DNA of 64,000 nt, from assembly GCF_000181795.1 (NCBI RefSeq), contig NW_003526943.1, positions 5,821,806 to 5,885,805 of the forward strand. The letters are read 5' to 3'. Every line of letters begins with the position of its first letter. The first letter of the stretch is position 1. Position numbers and translations under genes: made by a program. Source of the DNA: Trichinella spiralis (taxonomy: Eukaryota). Shown here in pieces: positions 8,490 to 45,138 of the stretch. The notes beneath the pieces were generated by a model. The model ran no database searches and was not told the origin of the DNA. It saw only the letters and a list, made by a program, of their open reading frames with translations.

Positions 8490-10297
8490 GTCAGTCTCTG
8501 TTGCCTAATGTTACATTAAGAAGAGATTAGAAAATATTGAAATACTGCAATGTAATAATTTTTTATATTATTTTTCTATTAGTAAAAATTTCATTATAGC
8601 TTCCCCACTGTCGAAAATTAGAAAACAGCTTTAGAATTCCATTATTTTTAAAATTTTAATGGCTAAAATTAAAATGGGCAAAGTTGAAACCATTTCTGGT
8701 TATTGTATTAGATCTCAGTGAGTCATCAACATCTGTACTGGTTAAGTAGATAATAATGAAAAATCTAGAATGTTAGATTTGTAAGGTCCTATTAACTACT
8801 GTAATCTATGAAAATAAGCTGAAAAATAGATCAACATAAAATCCCAATTAAAATGCGTAAATTCTGGGTATACGCTGCTGTATGCTGTATACTTTACACA
8901 ATAAAGTAGAAAATAAAAAAAAAACAAAAATATTTTTTGCAAATTTCATTTGTATTCTCTTCAATACATGTGAAAAGCTATTATTATTGAAATATTAAAG
9001 ATTTATTTCATATTACAGATATATATTTGATGGTATTAACTGAAAACATGCTGAAAATGCACTGGTATACACTCATCAGCAGTTTCCCGCTGAATCATTT
9101 AAAAGTATTTTTTGTTCCTCTTGAAATTTAACAGTGAGCATTAATTTAAAGCACACTAAAACAAAATCGTATGATCAATTTTATCATGCAATGCGCATTT
9201 ATTTAAGCCAAAGCTTTTGAATTATTGCAGAATATTATTAAACAATATAAATATAAATATATATATATCTGTTTTTAAGATTAAATGCAATGTTTAGTAA
9301 TAAATCAATTTATCGTAAAATAAATGAATAAATATTATTGTTTCGTCATATTCTGTCGCACATTTATGTTTTATTCAAAATTTAAAAGAAAAAATTTTCC
9401 AACAACCTGCTTTTCACTTTCTATTTGAGCGTGAAATAGAATAAATTGCTTTTTCTTCAAAAATATGCTTTTTGCATGCTTTAATTTGATTTTAATTTGT
9501 TTGTTGAAATAATAAAAGTTTAAATAAAATTTACCAATATATTGATTGGAGTATTTTGTTTACAAGTATTATCGTTTTGTCAACGCTTTGCCGCTGATTC
9601 ACGATGTTGTAGTCAGGATAAGGCAGCAACGATTTGTTTACACGTTGGCAACGTTCGCACCAGCCGACTGTCGTCACGATGGAAGAAAAGCAGTTTGGCG
9701 TGAATCAATTGTGAACGCTCAGAAGCATGCTATATTCTATTCGATCAACTGCTTTGAAACGAAGCTTCAATCGACATTGCGCTGTCACTTCAAGCGCAGC
9801 TCACCTTTATCTCAATATTCGATCAATCGCACCTGTTTAGACTGGCTTTTATTTAAATTAGCGAAGGTTTTACATTTGTTGGTCCCTGATCTGACGTTCC
9901 ACTGCCTGGCATCTTTGCTTTCCCACGCAATTCCCTTGTGATTTGGCATCTCGTCGTCTTCTGCTCCCGTTTCCGGTTTGTAGCCTGTTTGCTAACTTAA
10001 AATTATACTGTAGCCTGATCAGGACATGTTGACAGGAACCGGTTGCCAGAGACCGAAGCGTCACAATTGCACAAACAGCTTTGGCCGGCAAGCGGCCGGT
10101 CATAATTTAGCTCCCACCCAGCAACAAGGACACTTTTCTTGTTGAACCAATGTGAATTCCATTTTCGACTTCTCTTTGGGTCTTTTTTAAATCCCGTTGT
10201 TGTTGTGTTGTTTCATTAAATTATTATTATTATAAAAGCGGCAATGTTCTGACAAAGCTTTTTCAAATATTCATACACCTGATTGCACACTGTCAAC

Positions 10298-13200
10298 ATG
10301 GTCGGCATGAATCCTTGTTATTGTTGGAATCTTAAAGACGGTTGCATCACTGTTGGCATTTGGACATTGGTAAGTCAGTCAGTGAACTTTCATGTTTACT
10401 ATTTTGCACAAAATTGTTTACTTGTAAACAAGAGATTTCATTTTTCCAACATGATTCACATGTCATAATTTATCCCAATCTTTGTATATACATTGTTGAA
10501 CATTTTCATAAACAAATTTCATTGTTTGGCTTATTTTTTTATGCTAACTTAACTGAATTTTACCAAGTGTGTGATAAATTGAGCAAACAATAATAGTGAC
10601 GAAGCGTTAAGCCGAAATGAAGAAACAACAAAAACATGCAATTGCTTGATTATACTTCCGCATCTAGTTGGAAAATAATGAAGGGGTAGGGTTGGAGCAG
10701 AGGACAATTTATCTCAACTCAATACGAGTTGTTTGTTAAGGTAGATTTGTTTACAAGAACATGGTTACTTAGCAAGTTCAATTTACCGTGACAGAAGAAG
10801 AAAAACATGCTTCAAATGAGCAAATTTTTTTTCTAATAAACGCATGTCATCGTTATGCAAACACCAACAGCATTGCTTGATTTGTAATTTTATATTTTAC
10901 ATTTTTGACTTTTTGCATTATTCTTCAATTGTGCTGCCACTTGTTTAAATAAAATTATCCATTTGTCTTGTCAAAATTTAAGCTGATATTTCTTTTTAAA
11001 TTAATCCCCTTCTAGCTTTCAATTGAAAATTTTCACCTGAAACATGGAATCTGTTGTACAATAGAATTATAATTTCAGTATGATTATAATTTCACGCTGT
11101 TCAGAGTTTGTGGTTTAAATTCAAATTAGCGATGCATTGTTCATAGGACAATAATTTACCTCTCGCAGCATCATTAGGTAACTAATCTCTGCGTAATTAG
11201 CTGAAATTCTTTACCTGTTTTCAAATCATAATTTGAGTCAACTTTGAAATGAACGAATTTATATATCAAATATTTAAAAATACTTCTCTTTGCAACGGAT
11301 TTATTATTAATTACAAACAATTTAATTTAAAAGAATACCAAAAATTTGTTTTTTTCACTGTATGTTACGAATCACATTCCCTTATTTTTCTATTTTGTTC
11401 ATACAGTCATCAAAGTGTAGATGAAATCTGATAAAAAATGACAAAATTTGAAATGTTTGCTCAATTACAAACAAGACGAACGCTTGTAGTGGTCAAAAAT
11501 TCTGCGCTGGTGGACGAAGCGAGAATTTCTGATTTTTTTTTCCACCTCTCAATTTTATTGCAAAATTAAGCATGCATCATCAATGTGAGGGCTGTATGCT
11601 TGTGATAGTTTCACGCTGTGCTCTATTTGCTTTAAAATGTTGTGCTTGTTTTCAAAGCCAGCAGCTTGTGGACAGTCGTCAAAATTGATGACTCATACTG
11701 AGGCAAAGTTGGACAGGTTCTGCTTGATGCTGTTTGCAAAGGTAGACTATTGGACAATACAAACAGGATGCTTATTGCGAGTTTGCTTTATCGATTTTAT
11801 TGATGAAGCGGGTATCAAATTTTTCATTTCATCCCATATCTCCAATAATTTCTTTCTACTAGGTGGAAAATTTGATTTTAATGTAGCATCACTGTTAATT
11901 TAAATATGTCTTTTCATTAACACTCGTTGAAACTGAGCAAATGCAATCATATTTCATTATTTATATTCTACTGTAAATTTATAAAACTATGTGAAAGTGT
12001 TAAAGGCCTCTCATTTGTTGGAATAACGTTGACATCAAACAGAGACTAGTCAGTTAATTGTGCCGCATTTCGTGTAATGTCAAAAGGAGAATTATGGAGC
12101 TTGAAATGACAACGCGTTACCATAGCGACGATGCTTGAGAGAAGCTTAAAGTATACGCCACGATCTCAGCATTGTTGGTGCTTAATCATTCCCATTGCCA
12201 GGCCGAGGTCGTTTAGGTATTTTAAAAAGTTGGCCATGCAGTGGCTTGCCAGTGGAGGAGCCTTGTCCTTATTTTTATTTTGTATTTTCAAAAGTGGTAC
12301 AATGCACAGCTTGGAACGACGCGCGAAAAACCTTGTCCCAAATACCATCCGGAACATGTCCAATTTGCTTTGCATCAGTCAGAAAACAATAAAGTGATGG
12401 GGAATTAATTTTGAAAAATTGCTCATACACTTGAAATCAAAAATCATATCGACTCACTTGTCAGAAGTGTTTCCCTACTTTAAAGGCATTCAAATCAGAA
12501 CAACAATAGACAGACAAACAAACATTTTTTACCAAAAAAAATATAAGTAATAAACTAATGCTGAATAACGCTATTATTATTATTGTTATATTCGATATTA
12601 CTGCAGATTTTCAATAGATGCAATTCACTCTTGCATTTAATTTAAATTAAATTTCATTTCATTTAAACAGCAGATGCTGATTGAGAGAAGCATGAAAATT
12701 GTTTAATATGCATTGTTCCCTTCACTGCAATAATCAGATATATGATCATATTTATTCAGAAGTAAATTTCTATTTATTAATAAATATATTGAGTTGTAAT
12801 ATATAATTAATATTTACTGCACTAAAAGCTGAGGTTTTTAATTTTTAATGTAAAAATTATTTTTATTTTTATTACCGTAGTTTAAAAGGTGGCTTCAAAA
12901 TAATATTATGGTTAAACATTTATAAAAGAATGTATGTACTGTTTTTACATCGAAACTAATTTTAAAACTTTTATCAAAAATAAATAATAAAACTGCCTAC
13001 ACATTGATTCATTGCATATTATATCTCAGATTTAAGCTTATTAACATTACAATCTGGTTGCATGCGGATATTCTCAAGTGAAAATTAAGATGCAGTGTTA
13101 AACACAGAAACTTAAAAATAAGTAAAAAATTTTAGTTATCCAAATGTAGTTTATCACATACTGCCTATTGATGTATGATCAATTTTGATCAAAATTCCGC

Positions 13201-16200
13201 TTCATTATATGCAGTTATTAAATTAAATAATTAAATTAATGTGCAAATTTAGTTGCATGATCAATTGTTGAAAGTTTTATGTTAAAATTTTAATAAACAG
13301 CTCTATTTTTGCATCTGGAAATATGTTTTAAAAATATACACGTTTTTATATAACTTCAAACTGATTTTAGGTGTTTTCTTTCACTCAAATTGGTCTCTTC
13401 AGCTGGCAAACTTCAACACTTAACGGATGCAAGCACTTGCTTTACTATGTTTTAAACTCTTGCCAATTTTATTGCCCTTGCGTTCGAAGTGGAGATATTT
13501 ATGCAACCCAAAGGCTAATTCAGGGTAAACAGTTTTTCTGTAAAACGGACGGGACTGCTCATATTAGAATACCTTCTTCGGCGGGGACTGTTGTCTAGCT
13601 GTGCTTTGCTAGCTGTCGTACGTTTGCCACCTGAAAGTGGATCGAGATGAGTGAAATGGAAACATCACAACAGAAATTTAGCAAATTGCAAATCTGTTGT
13701 ATTGTAGATATGTTCTATCATTCAACTCGCCATCTTCTCGTGGCAATCGTATGTCATCAAATGGGAAAGGGACAAGACGGCTAATCGTCGTTTACCCTTT
13801 TATGGTACTCAGTCTTCATATGATTTTCGTTATTATGGTCCAGATTATTCTTCATTTTACGTAACTCCAGAAGAGCGATTTTACACCGGTAATCATAACT
13901 TAAATTCATTTCTCTTTTCCCTGTTTCTTTGGTGAGAAAAGCCATATTTGAAGTTTGCCAGCTGAAATGAGACCTGGGATTTTTGTTTGCATTTAAGAAT
14001 ATTGTTTTGCTTAGATGTATTCATTGTCCCAGGTGGCAATTTTCGGCTGGCAAACTTGGATCATTCGCTTATTGAAAGATAAGGCATCTAATGAACGTTA
14101 TACTCCAAATTTGGGAGCTTGGCGTCCAGAAGGTGAAAAATGGAAAGGCTATTTTGAACTAGCCTGGATGACTGATGAAGAACGGCGTTACTTTGGTTCC
14201 TTTAATTTCCAATTTGTTCCCCACTTTTTAAGGTTTATTCTAAAAAAACGTTGCTTATTATCCCAATTTTATTTTTAGGTTTGTTTGTCATTCAAATTTT
14301 GTGCTTGATCTCTGCTTTCTTTCTTCTATTTGGCTCAGTATCGCTCATTTATGGCATCCATACAGTAACACTTATTTGTATTATGTTAATTGTGAAATTA
14401 ATATACAACTTTTTGCAGAACTCGAAGCACCTCGTATGGCCATGGTTTCCGTGTGTGGTATCTTCGATACTTTGCTCAGTGGCTTACTGTATTACCTGGT
14501 GGGCTTCGGTAATTTAACCTGAATCCTATAATATGAACTATTTTGAAAATTACGTAGTCCTTTACTTCCAGGGAGTGGATAATTACTGGCTCATATTGAC
14601 CATTATAGAGTGGTTTTCAGTTATGATAAATGTAAAAAAGTATAATTTTTGTTTTCAGTTTAAAATATAATAGTAATTTTAGCTTTATGCACTTCTATGT
14701 GTCATTGTTCAGTATCGAAGAATTCTTCGAAACTATGACGAATATTCTGAAGAGCAAAAGGTACCTGTCGTAGTTTGGGATGATCAAAATCAGAAGGGAA
14801 ATTTCACTGAAACTAAACTTGGACGTAAGTTTACTGCTTACAATTGCTGCTGCTTGCTTTTCCTATTTTGTTTATCATTGCTTGCTGATGTATCTTGCGC
14901 AGATCAATAATTTTGTTATTATAATTAATAATTAATTTGAAAGTGTAAGAAAAGTAAAAATGGAAATGAATGAATGCAAGTTACAGCTACAGAATAGAAT
15001 TTTTATTTGTTATGTTTGCTATCTATTTTCCTTCTTGGCGCTATCTGCACTTTCGCTTTCAGCTGAGGCTTACTGGAATAAGACATTTGAAGAAGAACCT
15101 AAACCAGCTGTTAAAAGTAATGTTTCTGCTAAAGGACCATCACAGTTTATTGGGACACAATTTGGACAAAAGCAGATGCCCTACCATGCTCAAACTACTT
15201 CTGCTCTTGACGATCCTGGCCATGTGCTAGAACGTTACACGACAGAACCAGGAATTAAAGCGAACGACAGATATGATGCAAGATCATTTACAGCGTTGAA
15301 TGTTGCTACGGACGAAGTGGAATTACCTGCCAAAGAGAATCGTTCAGAAAATGATGTATTCACCCCGTCTGTGCCAATTGCCAAACGGCAAACAGAAGAT
15401 GAAATACTCAGGAGTAAATCAGTGGATGCACTGACAGCCCAACTCGAAGAAAGGGATCGTCGAAGTGTTCCGTATGTGTTTTCCTTATTAAAATATTAAA
15501 AATTGAACAGTAGTATAAATGAACATAAATGATTAAGTTTGTTGCATAATTTCAATTGATTATTATAAGTAGTAGTACTTGCAAATAACAAATAAACGGT
15601 ATGCATAATTAACAGTTTAAAACCTGAATAAATACATTTACATTGATCCTAAATTCTGTGCATTTGCGTTTTTATTTTATCAAACTGTTTTCTAAGCTGA
15701 GCACATGCCATCTGAAAATTAGTATTCATTTTTGCAGTTTTTGAATATTTATTAAATAAAAGTAATTTCTGAGATGACGAAAAAAGAATTGCATATTTTC
15801 AGGCACAGCAAATCTAAAGAATCAATAACAACACGTCACAGACATCGCAGTCACAGTCATCATCGTGGTGATCGTCGAGGAGATTATTATTCTGACGAAG
15901 AGACGGACATTGCTCGCTCTGTTGCTGGAAGTCGCAGTCGAATCAGTGAAACTGATACCGGTTACAGCTGCAGTGACGGTTCCAGAAGGAGCCGGCATCG
16001 TCGTCGTCATCACAGTCACGATGAAAGTGAACGTGGGCATCATCACCGTCATCGACGCCACCGGAGACCACGCGACGTAAAGCGGGATGACAGAGAGCGA
16101 AGTCACAGCAACAACAACAACAACAACAACAATGTTAGCAATGCTAATAACAGACAATCCAGTACAAACAGTTCGCCGGCAGCAGTACAAGCTGGACTTA

Positions 16201-16700
16201 TTGGAATGCCACTGCCAACTTACTCGCCTTATGAAATGGGCGCCGTTCGTTTAGATCCAAATTATGGATTGTCGCAAATGTTACCCAGCTATGCGTTGAA
16301 TCCGGCTTTTAATCAAGCGAATCTTTTGCAAGCGGTGAATCCATCGTACAGTCCGGTCGGTGGAATCCAAGTTTTGCCAACTGGCTTACCACACAATTCT
16401 TCCATTGGTGCCACGAATGCACATATTACTAAACCTATACCTGGTCAAACAGGCAGTCAGCCACAAAAATTTCAAATAAACTCAGAAATATTCATCAGCT
16501 ATAACAATGATCCTGCGAATCAAGCTTCGAGACCCTCTTCCCGACAGCAAGTCATTCAATTACAGCCAGTAGTTGGTGCTGCGAGTCTTGGTTCTAAGCA
16601 GCATTCGCCTGGTGTAGATTTTAATGAAACAATGGAACCTCGAAATTCTAGTGCTGCCGGCAGTGTTGATTCAAAAAGCACTGGTGCTACAGCTGTTTAA
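10298..16700 (+). CDS. Four-TM membrane protein (LAPTM/DUF4728-like N-terminus) with long disordered C-tail and three alternative exon 2 variants, ~636-645 aa
   Basis: Exon 1 10298-10369 (MVGMNPCYCWNLKDGCITVGIWTL). Exon 2 is 13371-13524, 13708-13888 or 14015-14195. Then 14279-14364, 14419-14508, 14572-14631, 14683-14824, 15063-15471 and 15803-16700. All junctions are GT-AG and in frame. Hydrophobic segments include LFVIQILCLISAFFLLFGSVSLIYG, LVWPWFPCVVSSILCSVAYCITWW and YWLILTIIEWFSVMINLYALLCVIV. The tail is H/R/S-rich then P/S-rich. Confidence 0.85.
13371..13524 (+). CDS. Alternative exon 2a (154 nt, Cys-rich loop)
   Basis: ttttag|GTG ... CAG G|gtaaac. Encodes VFSFTQIGLFSWQTSTLNGCKHLLYYVLNSCQFYCPCVRSGDIYATQRLIQ. 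Confidence 0.8.
13622..13666 (+). promoter_or_regulatory. Putative splicing selector b, complementary to 13370-13411
   Basis: gtttgcca-c-ctgaa-agt-ggatcga-ga-tgagtgaaa-t-ggaaacatc pairs in five helices (8+5+7+9+9 bp including G-U) with the start of exon 2a and the G of its acceptor AG. Confidence 0.75.
13708..13888 (+). CDS. Alternative exon 2b (181 nt, Tyr-rich loop)
   Basis: ttgtag|ATA ... ACC G|gtaatc. Encodes ICSIIQLAIFSWQSYVIKWERDKTANRRLPFYGTQSSYDFRYYGPDYSSFYVTPEERFYT. Not in the ORF track. Confidence 0.85.
13948..13974 (+). promoter_or_regulatory. Putative splicing selector c, complementary to 13392-13416
   Basis: ttgaagtttgccagctgaa (13948-13966) is the exact reverse complement of 13398-13416. 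After a 2-nt bulge, gagacc pairs with ggtctc (13392-13397). Confidence 0.8.
14015..14195 (+). CDS. Alternative exon 2c (181 nt)
   Basis: gcttag|ATG ... TTT G|gttcct (weak donor). Encodes MYSLSQVAIFGWQTWIIRLLKDKASNERYTPNLGAWRPEGEKWKGYFELAWMTDEERRYF. Confidence 0.8.
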
Positions 16701-17393: not shown

Positions 17394-20300
17394 TTGCTGA
17401 TGAATAGAATTGAAACATTAAAATCATCAAAAGATTATTATAATACGTTCAACAAATGTATTGTTATTTTTGCTCCAATATATACATATGCATATACACA
17501 TATATATTTGTGCATTGTTAGCATTATGCTATCATATTTTATTGCACACATCTTTGAATGTTAAATGATTGTTGAAAAATGTTTGCAAATGAAACTTTGT
17601 TGTTTCAATGTTTAAATCAATAAATTTATTTGATTGCTTTATAAATATTTATCAGCAAAATTATTTAAAATTTAAAAATAAATGTAAAGGGAACTATTTT
17701 AATGCAGAAAAAATTTAACTTTAGAGGAAAAAGCGTTAGAAAATGCAAAAATTTTGCTAATTAGTTAATTACATTGCAGCGAATGATTTTCTGCTTTCAG
17801 GTTGCCTGCTTTTCACGGGTTGTCTCTTATTTTTCTTTCTGTAGCCTGCTTTCTCAGTCCGTTCACTTTATTCATAGTGAATAAGCTCATTGAGTATAAA
17901 ACTCTCTCAGGCTGTGGTAACTCATGCCTTTCACTATTCACACACTAACACAGAATATACTAGAACAATATTGACGGGGAGCGTTCTTTATAAAATCGTG
18001 CTCAGCTCTGTTGTCTCATTGACCTCTCTTGATAAAGGGTCAGCTAGCCATTGGCGTTTAGGACTTAGCATCTGTTTCTGCCATGGTATCTTAGAATGCT
18101 TGTTTCATTGTTTTTGCTCAATTACTGACTGAGCTGAAGATTTAGTGGCAATTAACGAATCAACCAATTATAGTTTAAGCTGTGTGAAGCGTTTTATTCG
18201 TAAATTATTTCTTGGAACTTATTGCCCAAGTTGTCCTGAATTAGGTGTCATTGGTTGCTGACCTATTTCCATAACTCTGGTCACTTGTAAACAAGTTGGA
18301 ACTTAAGCAGTAAAGAAATGAACTGCTACAATGTTAAAGCAGATGTTACAGCACAATTACAATAAATAATTAGTTCTAATTATTAGTCAACAGTTCCACA
18401 CTATAAAATACTAAGATATGTTTTGTCAGTTTTGATATTAGTCTTTACAGATTTGTCATGTAAAAGTTTTAAAGTGAAATAAATTAATATAACATAGCTT
18501 AAGGTTATAATAAAGATGAATATTCATCTTTATTTACAAATTACTTTTAATTCAAATTTAAAATGTCCATCAAAAGTGCTTTATTACTTATGCGTTTTAT
18601 TAGCAGTTTGTTGTTTATTATCAAAAAAACTAGTTCAAACGATATTTGTATAATTTGAAATAAAATAAAATAAAATGCATTTAAAAGTTAAAATATATTC
18701 ACATATATTTACATTCTGAAATATACAAAACATTGAGCAATCAATAAGTATATAACTCTTGAAAATCACACTCTTTTCTACAGTATACGTCAACTTGTTA
18801 TTTAACCTTTCATAATTTTGCGGATCATTATGTTGTTAAGTTCCGATTTTATTTATTGAATAACTGATGCTTTGTTGAGCTCGTGCTTTTAGTAAAATAA
18901 TTCAGTTTTGTTGCGCAACAATCTGCATCACCACGTTGTAAGCATGTTGGGTTTTATTATACATTGACTACAGTTTGATAGTTGAAAGCTAATGTTACGT
19001 GTTTGATTCTTGTTTACAACAAAATAGTGTATACAATGAAATAAAGAAATGAAGTGGTTTGAGTTTTTAAAATATTTTAAAGAAGTCTTATGATACCAGG
19101 TTTGTATAACTTGAATTTATGATTTGTAGGTTATCCTTGTTTAATTGTAAATTTGGAATTTTTCAACTATCATTAGGTTACATTGAGTGGTATCTGTATT
19201 GAACGAAATTTATTTATAATTATATGAAGTATATGTATAGTTAGTTTTAATATAAATAAATCTCAAGTTTTATGATTAATTTGGTTTCCTAAAAAATACT
19301 TTCATGTATTTAATAGTAAATGAATGTTTTAGATTAAGTATGGATAATTATATTATGTTTACATAATAGATGTTTAACTGTTAGATCAGTACGATGTAGT
19401 CTGATTTTTATATAATAGTTGGCATCAGTTTATCTGAAGGTTCTATCAATCGCTTGCTTTAAAGAACTTTGCTTTGTAATTATTCTTTTGAAGCAGTATA
19501 ATTTTTTCACAGAGTATCAAAAAGATCAGCTTCAAATAGTAACCGTGTAATTCGAATAAATTTGAAAATTTATTTTAAATATTACTTTTAAATAAAGTGT
19601 GCATAGTTGCGTATTTCTGAAATTATCATATGCATGTGAGGATGTTTAAAGAATTTTGAACCTTAAGTGAGTGAAGATTCAAGATGGCTGTTGCAATATA
19701 ACTTGTAATGTTTATATTCGAAATAGAAATCAGCAGGCATTTGTTTAGCTTTCATTAGTAATAAAAAGAAAGGGATTCAGTTTATGAGGAGCATTTGAGA
19801 AGAATTTTATATGGAATATTTGCAAACATTTTTTCAATGCATTGATAAGTAATGCGACAGTTTCTGGCAGAAATAAGAAAAGTAATTTTAACAGCAGTAA
19901 CATTATGTAATTAAATGAATTATAATGTATTGTTGTTGACTTTGAATAATTTTTCCATTGATGTTGATAAGCAAGTACGAATGGAATTTCACGATTCATC
20001 AGCAGATAAAGATGAGGTATTGCATGCATTGGTGATGATGTGTGTGGTTCTGATCAGTTGTTTTGAAAAGTGTTTTTTGCTAAAATTTTATCTTTATGAT
20101 AAGAAGAATAATGGAGATGGGGTGTATATTGAAAGAATTTTAATTGTTTGCTTTGATCACTTTTTATTTGTTTATGGTTTATTGAATGAAGAGAAGAAGC
20201 TTGTATGATTTATTGGTTATAAAATCCAATTCTTAATTTGAAAAGCATTTCATTGAAATGAAGCTTATATCTGCTATTTGAATGTTTTTTGAAAATTTAT

Positions 20301-45128: not shown

Positions 45129-45138
45129 NNNNNNNNNN
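45129..45138. other. Assembly gap (10 N)
   Basis: Run of n in the sequence. Confidence 1.

What the first reader, a model, noticed from the sequence alone, without database searches (positions are those of the whole stretch)
13371..14195. Three tandem paralogous exons swap the first loop of a four-TM protein
Seen: the three exons start VFSFTQIGLFSWQ, ICSIIQLAIFSWQ and MYSLSQVAIFGWQ. Exons 2b and 2c end EERFYT and EERRYF. All are phase 0 to phase 1, with lengths 154, 181 and 181 (3n+1), so including none or two shifts the frame. The loops differ sharply: four Cys in 2a, Tyr-rich in 2b, Trp/charged in 2c. Inference: a mutually exclusive cassette giving three surface (extracellular or luminal) isoforms on one constant membrane body and tail, possibly stage- or tissue-specific. 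Automated annotation would probably report only one.
Basis: partly seen in the sequence, partly recalled or inferred. Interest (0 to 1): 0.78.

Follow-up and report, generated by a model that had tools for sequence, protein, structure and literature searches.

The report
Intron blockers choose among three exons
A roundworm membrane-protein gene has three interchangeable exons, of which only one at a time gives a full protein, and two short intron stretches between them are complementary to the exons' starts and are predicted to cover any two so that one stays free, likely a three-exon version of a splicing switch known from a human gene.

Summary
The three exons are real: coordinates, phases and lengths (154/181/181) check out, and only single inclusion keeps the frame. 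Five of six single-inclusion joints were seen in public runs; the entry into 2c was not. The gene is from Trichinella. The cassette is conserved across nematodes and is likely the orthologue of C. elegans W06F12.2 exons 2a/2b, already shown to be mutually exclusive and NMD-dependent (PMC4165533). X (13611-13665) pairs with 2a or 2b. Y (13947-13975) pairs with 2a (19 perfect pairs, the longest two-armed perfect inverted repeat found in the window) or 2c, but not 2b. Three nested folds, 3.5-6 kcal/mol apart, each leave one exon free. Silent sites of the 2a arm appear fixed in Trichuris. A distant nematode has the same core in a 17-bp helix, but with an intronic partner. The pairing is predicted, not probed, and NMD alone could give exclusivity. 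Verdict: new variant of ATE1-type masking.

The parts
9976..10035 (+). 60-nt intron in the 5' untranslated leader
   Evidence: GT..AG joint in 3 of 4 runs
10298..10369 (+). e1, first coding exon part (24 codons, start of TM1), common donor
12233..12263 (+). Z: intron-1 site with the same antisense core; weak lead only
   Evidence: best intron-1 site for the three arms and the e1 donor; after local shuffling 3, 55, 4 and 0 of 100, and 26 of 158 control tiles also land here
13371..13524 (+). exon 2a (154 nt, four-Cys loop); nt 1-46 are the predicted target of X and Y
   Evidence: clade with the Cys exon of other nematodes 99/99
13398..13416 (+). 2a arm of the perfect 19-bp inverted repeat with Y (FSWQ codons)
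   Evidence: shifted-frame identity with Trichuris suis over 13391-13414
13611..13665 (+). X: antisense element in the 2a-2b intron, predicted to pair with the start of 2a or 2b
   Evidence: duplex -48.6 and -50.7 kcal/mol; 0 of 300 local shuffles each
13708..13888 (+). exon 2b (181 nt, Tyr-rich loop); nt 1-46 are the predicted target of X only
   Evidence: Y:2b not above chance, 124 of 300
13947..13975 (+). Y: antisense element in the 2b-2c intron, predicted to pair with 2a (19 bp perfect) or 2c (17 bp, one G-U); core 14 of 15 identical to X
14015..14195 (+). exon 2c (181 nt, Trp/charged loop, weak donor); 14041-14057 is the arm for Y
   Evidence: exit joint in 2 of 8 runs; 59-60 of 60 aa kept in the full-length Trichinella matches; clade with Trichuris and Romanomermis 98/95
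14279..14364 (+). e3, common acceptor (TM2)
14419..14508 (+). e4 (TM3, PW motif)
14572..14631 (+). e5
14683..14824 (+). e6 (end of TM4, start of tail)
15063..15471 (+). e7 (tail, low-confidence in the model)
15803..16700 (+). e8 coding part to the stop (His/Arg/Ser-rich tail)

Best explanation
This is a three-exon cassette in a nematode four-helix membrane protein gene in which only single-exon inclusion keeps the frame, and two intronic elements complementary to the exons' first 46 coding bases are predicted to mask two exons at a time and so likely leave one free for splicing. X, between 2a and 2b, can bind 2a or 2b; Y, between 2b and 2c, can bind 2a or 2c but not 2b. The three nested combinations X:2b+Y:2c, X:2a+Y:2c and X:2b inside Y:2a free 2a, 2b and 2c in turn. 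Leaks (none, two or three exons, or a retained intron) carry early stops and would be removed by nonsense-mediated decay, as shown for the likely C. elegans orthologue. X and Y are likely copies of one element duplicated with an exon, so each added exon would bring its own blocker. Shown: exons, frames, five of six joints, complementarity above chance, conservation of the exons. Inferred: that the helices form in vivo, that they repress, the e1>2c joint, NMD in this species, the outward-facing loop.
For: The Y:2a 19-bp perfect repeat is the top helix in 10300-14400 and Y:2c is second. It is the longest perfect two-armed inverted repeat with arms under 3 kb apart in the 64 kb. Introns shuffled in 40-nt blocks against exon nt 1-46: 0 of 300 for five of six pairs, 124 of 300 for Y:2b; ten control targets 8-146 of 150. 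The sequences flanking the cassette show nothing (6 tests, 108-895 of 1000). The unconstrained MFE is the 2a-free state; the other two lie within 3.5-6.0 kcal/mol over five region limits, and the leaky X:2c state is 27-34 worse. In each state the freed exon is the least paired (0.50, 0.52, 0.33 unpaired against 0.14-0.23). Folds of growing transcripts switch partners. A mis-framed Trichuris suis model (P0033) matches the shifted frame of 2a at 8 straight codons, 13391-13414, which is the paired arm; the e3 control matches 9 of 28 with a longest run of 3. L002, a distant nematode, has the same TGCCAG core in its inter-exon intron inside a 17-bp perfect helix (shuffles reach at most 11 of 17 bp in 1000 tries), and the core can also pair with the downstream exon's FGWQ codons (19 of 400). 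Precedent for masking by one shared element: ATE1 (PMC7797038, passages).
Against: No structure probing or mutation; all pairing is computed. No compensatory change could be counted for the Trichinella helices: the relatives laid are about 99% alike, with no listed change in X or Y and only 7-8 in the other cassette intron bases, which by my rough estimate is not significant. Frame plus NMD already explains exclusivity at protein level, and C. elegans W06F12.2 is NMD-dependent, so any structure there is leaky. In L002 the main partner is intronic and loops out the first exon; pairing with the first exon is at chance (188 of 1000), pairing with the second is borderline (54 of 1000 by energy) and 10 kcal/mol worse, and whole-intron tests are not significant (27 and 23 of 300). 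X and Y have no such upstream partner here (100 and 39 of 100), so the architectures differ. X can pair with 2c in isolation (0 of 300), which would free two exons. A gap of 3.5-6 kcal/mol is large at equilibrium and counts as close only within model error. Longest-repeat control: 2 of 1000 shuffles and 8 of 126 same-size windows reach 19 when palindromes count. Silent-site conservation could reflect a protein-binding element. The use of 2c's acceptor is not shown.
Confidence: 0.6

Rival explanations
1. Ordinary cassette: splicing factors pick the exon, NMD removes errors, and the antisense elements are leftovers of an old local hairpin copied with the exons that do not affect splicing.
For: Every wrong combination has an early stop. 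W06F12.2 is NMD-dependent, and the C. elegans clusters described in that paper's introduction are controlled by RNA-binding proteins (PMC4165533, parts 1-2 of 4). No covariation was measurable in Trichinella.
Against: A neutral leftover should have decayed: 2a and 2c agree only in their first 14 residues, yet Y matches 2a at 19 of 19 bases across an intervening exon. Silent sites of the arm match Trichuris. The core lies in a 17-bp helix in L002.
Confidence: 0.2
2. The helices form but tune isoform ratios or activate the bound exon (Dscam docking/balancer logic) rather than enforce exclusivity; site Z in intron 1 may act as a docking site that swaps between the e1 donor and the free exon.
For: Intron-exon balancer pairings in Dscam1 shift choice without being the exclusivity device (PMC12962786 and PMC8791459, passages). 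Y binds inside the exon, not on the acceptor AG. Z is the best intron-1 site for all three arms and the e1 donor.
Against: X covers the first exon bases next to the acceptor. Two elements for three exons, with Y unable to bind 2b, gives exactly one free exon in each nested state. Z is a sticky GC-rich patch: 26 of 158 control tiles land on it.
Confidence: 0.15
3. Only 2a and 2b are true alternatives in this species; 2c is rarely entered and mostly appears in unproductive transcripts that keep the 2b-2c intron.
For: Contigs run unspliced from 2b through the intron into 2c in X1, X4 and X8. The 2c donor is far from consensus.
Against: 2c keeps 59-60 of 60 residues in the full-length Trichinella matches and forms a clade with Trichuris and Romanomermis exons. 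Its exit joint is seen in 2 runs. Contigs in X9 and X10 begin exactly at 14014, as contigs do at the two used acceptors (a weak hint). Three database models join e1-2c-e3 (models, not transcripts).
Confidence: 0.05

Closest known systems
C. elegans W06F12.2 exons 2a/2b (PMC4165533, Table 1; parts 1-2 of 4 of the text read)
   Same: Homologous mutually exclusive exons at exon 2, 154 and 172 nt, both 3n+1, 154-nt exon first. The homologous exons in C. briggsae models (51 and 57 codons) and in L002 have exactly these lengths, and 2a here is 154 nt. Validated by RT-PCR; NMD-dependent.
   Different: Two exons there, three here. No RNA structure is mentioned in the parts read. The C. elegans sequence was not fetched, so orthology rests on position, order, phase and lengths.
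Human ATE1 exons 7a/7b, R1R3/R3R4 (PMC7797038, abstract and passages)
   Same: An element between duplicated exons pairs with either of two homologous sites at the exon starts, hiding one; breaking it gives double inclusion.
   Different: ATE1 targets are intronic, on the polypyrimidine tracts and splice sites; there is one blocker for two 3n exons. Here the targets are coding bases, two blockers with different ranges serve three exons, the frame adds an NMD backup, and nothing is tested.
Dscam1 docking/selector and balancer pairings (PMC6071210 part 1 and passages; PMC8791459 and PMC12962786 passages)
   Same: Competing long-range pairings in a duplicated-exon cluster; balancer pairs include intron-exon helices, one of which lowers inclusion of the bound exon.
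   Different: One flanking docking site activates the chosen exon. Here the competing elements sit between the exons and are predicted to hide the unchosen ones; no flanking docking site passed controls.
Pasiflora / DUF4728-DUF7027 tetraspan proteins (PMC4582180, passages)
   Same: Four long helices, no signal peptide seen, Cys-rich N-terminus, larger first loop, PW motif at TM3; weak Pfam and Atlas similarity.
   Different: Below Pfam cut-offs; the TM4 motif is only partly matched; 450-residue tail; the passages seen list no nematode orthologue. The link between DUF4728 and Pasiflora is recalled, not from a call.

Membership tests
Homologous mutually exclusive exon cluster | Tandem homologous exons of the same phase and similar length | tested here: met
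Homologous mutually exclusive exon cluster | Each exon is spliced singly between the same flanking exons | tested here: inconclusive
   both joints seen for 2a and 2b; only the exit joint for 2c
Homologous mutually exclusive exon cluster | No productive multi-inclusion or skipping | tested here: met
   all five wrong combinations stop by codon 107; no such joints listed, though contigs cannot show absence
Orthologue of C. elegans W06F12.2 cluster | Exon position, order, phase and lengths match | tested here: met
   154/172 nt in Table 1, in C. briggsae models and L002; Cys exon clade 99/99
Orthologue of C. elegans W06F12.2 cluster | Direct sequence match to the C. elegans gene | not tested
   no protein named as C. 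elegans was among the hits whose names were shown
ATE1-type competing masking structure | Inter-exon element complementary to homologous sites at both neighbouring exons | tested here: met
   X:2a and X:2b, Y:2a and Y:2c, each 0 of 300
ATE1-type competing masking structure | Targets are intronic and overlap the polypyrimidine tract or 3' splice site | tested here: not met
   targets are exon nt 1-46
ATE1-type competing masking structure | Conservation with compensatory changes | tested here: inconclusive
   relatives too close; indirect silent-site and core conservation
ATE1-type competing masking structure | Disruption gives double inclusion and compensation restores it | not testable with these tools
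   needs minigene or antisense tests
Dscam docking site-selector system | One flanking-intron docking site complementary to a selector at every exon | tested here: inconclusive
   Z: 3, 55, 4 of 100 local shuffles and a sticky site; downstream intron negative
Pasiflora / DUF4728 | Pfam DUF4728 score at or above the 26.7-bit cut-off | tested here: not met
   18.4-18.7 bits for stored Trichinella isoform models
Pasiflora / DUF4728 | Four transmembrane helices with a larger first loop | tested here: met
   helices 12-55, 64-104, 113-133, 138-179 in the model of P0147, pLDDT mostly 87-98; hydropathy alone found only 2-3 segments
Pasiflora / DUF4728 | PW motif at the start of TM3 | tested here: met
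   P112 W113 nearly invariant in 46 rows
Pasiflora / DUF4728 | VxSQYQ (Pasiflora1) or VxS (Pasiflora2) at the end of TM4 | tested here: not met
   V, Q and Y are present but S and the last Q are not (against PMC4582180)
Pasiflora / DUF4728 | Localises to and builds occluding junctions | not testable with these tools
   no data

The most novel reading that the evidence does not exclude
A self-counting 'n exons, n-1 blockers' switch: antisense elements copied along with each duplicated exon bind the conserved coding codons of the paralogous exons, so that all but one exon are masked in every fold, with no docking site and no dedicated repressor. The same core has served exon choice in this gene across nematodes, rewired from an intron-intron loop-out in one lineage to intron-exon masking in another.
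Probability: 0.4. Interest if true: 0.78.

Novelty: new variant of a known kind. Interest (0 to 1): 0.62.

Why it matters
Docking-site models explain skipping on one side of the chosen exon and leave the other side to an unknown repressor (as PMC6071210 puts it). The masking mechanism shown for ATE1 covers two exons. Here, in 900 bases, is a candidate that would hide all unchosen exons of a trio by pairing alone, and that would grow automatically with each duplication. It is small enough for a complete disrupt-and-compensate test in a worm reporter, and the likely C. elegans orthologue is already a validated cluster. It would also put an RNA-level constraint on protein-coding codons. On the protein side, an unstudied nematode tetraspan keeps a four-Cys loop and one or two aromatic loops as alternatives from Trichinella to Caenorhabditis, which suggests distinct partners per isoform. 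Most database models of the gene are wrong (34 of 45 fetched).

Tried and rejected
No whole genome is held for this window, so there was no genome-wide control for inverted repeats at other cassettes. The run search listed no holder on record as RNA; the one RNA run was added by species label and gave only 149 reads. The e1>2c joint was not listed in 8 of 8 runs, and parts of the cassette introns had no cover in some runs; contigs drop rare variants and a filter removes records, so neither shows absence. No DNA control run was laid. Contig depths were not used to rank isoforms. Covariation from relatives failed because they were too close (7 substitution rows over 1006 bases). A fourth exon in intron 1 was sought by motif and none was found. 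Z as a docking site weakened under local-composition and tile controls. An upstream intronic partner for X or Y, as in L002, was not found. Intron read-through in mis-annotated proteins: 2 of 12 segments (Ancylostoma ceylanicum P0104, Setaria P0042) hold the translated core, against 0.13-0.15 expected in 315 residues; the motif was defined after I noticed these two, so it is a hint only. A 2a query found only 4 Trichinella proteins, so the in-frame Trichuris 2a was not available. The metagenome scan gave 2 loci of 139 pattern hits, one spliced (L001, no introns) and one genomic. Fold searches gave only generic helical bundles: no Foldseek match at E 0.001 or better, best Z 12.6 to a designed bundle, under the level the tool advises for bundles. 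Atlas hits scored 0.87 or less, leads only. Whether the third exon arose twice is unresolved: joining 2c with the clade III middle exon is borderline rejected (p-AU 0.043), two other groupings are not (0.445, 0.415; five rows, three of them outgroups and two long branches among them, were left out). Earlier findings: nothing by sequence or words. PMC5711460 on MRP structures is not held, and the WIREs review cited in PMC6071210 was not looked up; either could hold a closer precedent. No supplements were opened.

Full report
Observation. The three exons lie at the stated coordinates with AG before and GT after, phase 0 to phase 1, 154, 181 and 181 nt. With e1 (10298-10369) and six downstream exons each gives one open frame of 636, 645 or 645 codons. 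Skipping all, any two, or all three stops by codon 34-107, and so does retention of any of the three short introns. Their 5' ends are the top direct-repeat family of the region; beyond the first 14 residues only 2b and 2c still align well. Composition is as described.

Transcript evidence. Eight runs were laid: one raw RNA run (149 reads) and seven contig sets whose RNA status is a guess, though they hold GT..AG joints. Seen: e1>2a in 7 of 8, e1>2b in 8 of 8, 2a>e3 in 2, 2b>e3 in 7, 2c>e3 in 2, and all five downstream introns in the 4 runs. Not listed: e1>2c, and any joint between cassette exons. Contigs cannot show absence. In X9 and X10 a contig begins exactly at 14014, as contigs do at the two used acceptors; this is a weak hint that the 2c acceptor is used. 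Contigs also cross the cassette introns unspliced (2a-2b in X7, X8, X9, X10; 2b-2c in X1, X4, X8; 2c-e3 in X8, X9, X10). That may be pre-mRNA, retained introns or DNA; no DNA control was laid.

Identity and conservation. Protein hits name the genus Trichinella; 2c is 98-100% identical in the 15 best of 21 hits, including T. pseudospiralis, T. papuae and T. zimbabwensis. Of 45 Trichinella models, 11 are clean single-exon forms of all three kinds. Homologues span Trichuris, Romanomermis, Soboliphyme, Plectus, ascarids, filariae, strongylids, Caenorhabditis and tylenchs. A Setaria model shows three exons in a row and Caenorhabditis models two. In a tree of 32 exon peptides the four-Cys exon is one clade (99/99), and 2c groups with Trichuris and Romanomermis exons (98/95). 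How the other exons relate is unresolved. Table 1 of PMC4165533 (parts 1-2 of 4 read) lists C. elegans W06F12.2 exons 2a (154 nt) and 2b (172 nt), 3n+1, validated as mutually exclusive and NMD-dependent. The C. briggsae and L002 exons have exactly these lengths, so this is likely the orthologue; I did not have its sequence. It is the only paper in the library that holds that gene name. So the cassette is a known kind, here with a third exon.

Protein. A model of the stored 2a isoform P0147 on a 46-row alignment has four long confident helices in residues 12-179 and a low-confidence tail. The cassette (residues 25-75) covers the second half of helix 1, the loop and the lead into helix 2. Pfam DUF4728 and DUF7027 score below cut-off, the Atlas points to the same families at 0.87, and fold searches give generic bundles only. 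The PW motif of Pasiflora proteins is present but the TM4 motif is not complete. I call it Pasiflora-like, not a member. An outward-facing first loop is inferred from that topology and from the four conserved cysteines.

Bases 13398-13416 of 2a and 13948-13966 of the 2b-2c intron are a perfect 19-bp inverted repeat, the best helix in 4.1 kb and the longest two-armed perfect repeat within 3 kb spacing in the window. The same element, Y, pairs with 2c over 17 bp. A related element, X, in the 2a-2b intron (core 14 of 15 identical) pairs with the first 41-46 bases of 2a or of 2b at about -49 to -51 kcal/mol. Against introns shuffled in 40-nt blocks, five of six intron-exon pairs are unmatched in 300 shuffles and Y:2b is at chance; ten control targets are at chance or nearly so, the lowest 8 of 150. 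The flanking sequences show nothing. The looser longest-repeat control is less striking: 2 of 1000 shuffles and 8 of 126 windows reach 19 when palindromes count.

Mechanism (predicted). With X limited to 2a or 2b and Y to 2a or 2c, three nested folds exist: X:2b+Y:2c, X:2a+Y:2c, and X:2b inside Y:2a. They score -270.0, -266.9 and -266.5 kcal/mol, and the first is the unconstrained minimum. They stay within 3.5-6.0 kcal/mol over five region limits, while forcing X onto 2c costs 27-34. In each, the unbound exon has the most open start. Folds of growing transcripts move X from 2a towards 2b and Y from 2a to 2c, so elongation and splicing speed would set the ratio (inference). Errors would go to NMD. 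X:2c is significant in isolation and would free two exons; the model needs Y to win 2c, which its nearness favours.

Evolutionary tests. Close relatives were uninformative: no listed change in X or Y, 7-8 in the other cassette intron bases. A mis-framed T. suis model matches the shifted frame of 2a at eight straight codons, 13391-13414, which needs identical silent bases in the paired arm; the e3 control gives 9 of 28 with a longest run of 3. The same model implies that the Trichuris 2c arm reads like the 2a arm. This could also reflect a protein-binding element. L002, a genomic contig whose first exon sits next to Ditylenchus in the tree, has the same core in its inter-exon intron. There it is part of a 17-bp perfect helix, extended to about 60 nt, with the intron upstream of the first exon (shuffles reach at most 11 bp), which would loop that exon out. 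The core can also pair with the second exon's FGWQ codons, with an exon A-to-G difference matched by U-to-C in the intron relative to Y:2a (8 Watson-Crick pairs plus one G-U; 19 of 400), but that state is 10 kcal/mol worse, and pairing to the first exon is at chance. So structure at this cassette recurs, but its wiring differs. Two of 12 intron read-through segments carry the translated core (motif chosen after the fact).

Rivals. NMD with protein regulators and no role for the helices (0.2); helices that tune or activate, perhaps with site Z as a docking site (0.15; Z fails most controls); 2c not a real third choice (0.05).

Comparison with the literature. ATE1 uses one inter-exon element to hide either of two intronic 3' splice sites (PMC7797038, abstract and passages). 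Dscam1 uses an activating docking site plus balancer pairs, some intron-exon (PMC6071210 part 1 and passages; PMC8791459 and PMC12962786 passages). PMC4691838 (one passage) and the reviews PMC10790352 and PMC11802352 (passages) describe intronic docking systems; PMC13762713 (abstract) concerns two exons. Six searches on mechanism and organism listed no paper whose title or abstract start describes two inter-exon blockers aimed at coding bases of three exons, or such a structure in a nematode. The library lacks most subscription journals, PMC5711460 was not held, and no supplements were read, so a closer precedent may exist.

Verdict. The interest lies in the predicted two-blocker masking, a new variant of ATE1-type competing structure, well above chance in sequence but untested. 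Interest 0.62.

Noticed in passing
window 9976-10035: A 60-nt intron in the 5' leader of the gene, spliced in 3 of 4 runs; one T. sp. T8 model (P0142) translates this leader, likely a mis-annotation.
   Followed up: partly
window 12233-12263: Site Z in intron 1 pairs with the e1 donor region better than 100 of 100 local shuffles; it could mask that donor, but the site is sticky.
   Followed up: partly
window 13525-13707, 13889-14014, 14196-14278: Contigs cross these three introns unspliced in several runs; all give early stops. Unexplained: pre-mRNA, retention or DNA.
   Followed up: partly
window 13568-13617: GC-rich stretch just upstream of X whose mis-annotated translation keeps 15-17 of 17 residues in non-encapsulated Trichinella models; may be part of a larger structure.
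   Followed up: no
window 13988-14019: A predicted 10-bp hairpin covers the 2c acceptor AG in the minimum-energy fold.
   Followed up: no
window 15803-16140: His/Arg/Ser-rich block followed by an Asn run in the tail; a His/Arg-rich block is also in the tail of L001.
   Followed up: no
L002 2116-2162 and 2493-2553: Long intron-intron helix around the four-Cys exon in a distant nematode; a separate candidate switch worth its own test.
   Followed up: partly
L002 2600-2626 and 2882-2908: A 27-nt, 74% inverted repeat between the second cassette exon and the next constant exon.
   Followed up: no
window 45129-45138: Run of 10 N, an assembly gap.
   Followed up: no
window 17575-17590/19818-19833 and 31843-31859/34771-34787: AT-rich perfect inverted repeats of 16 and 17 bp with arms 2-3 kb apart; a 26-nt palindrome at 18509-18534.
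   Followed up: no
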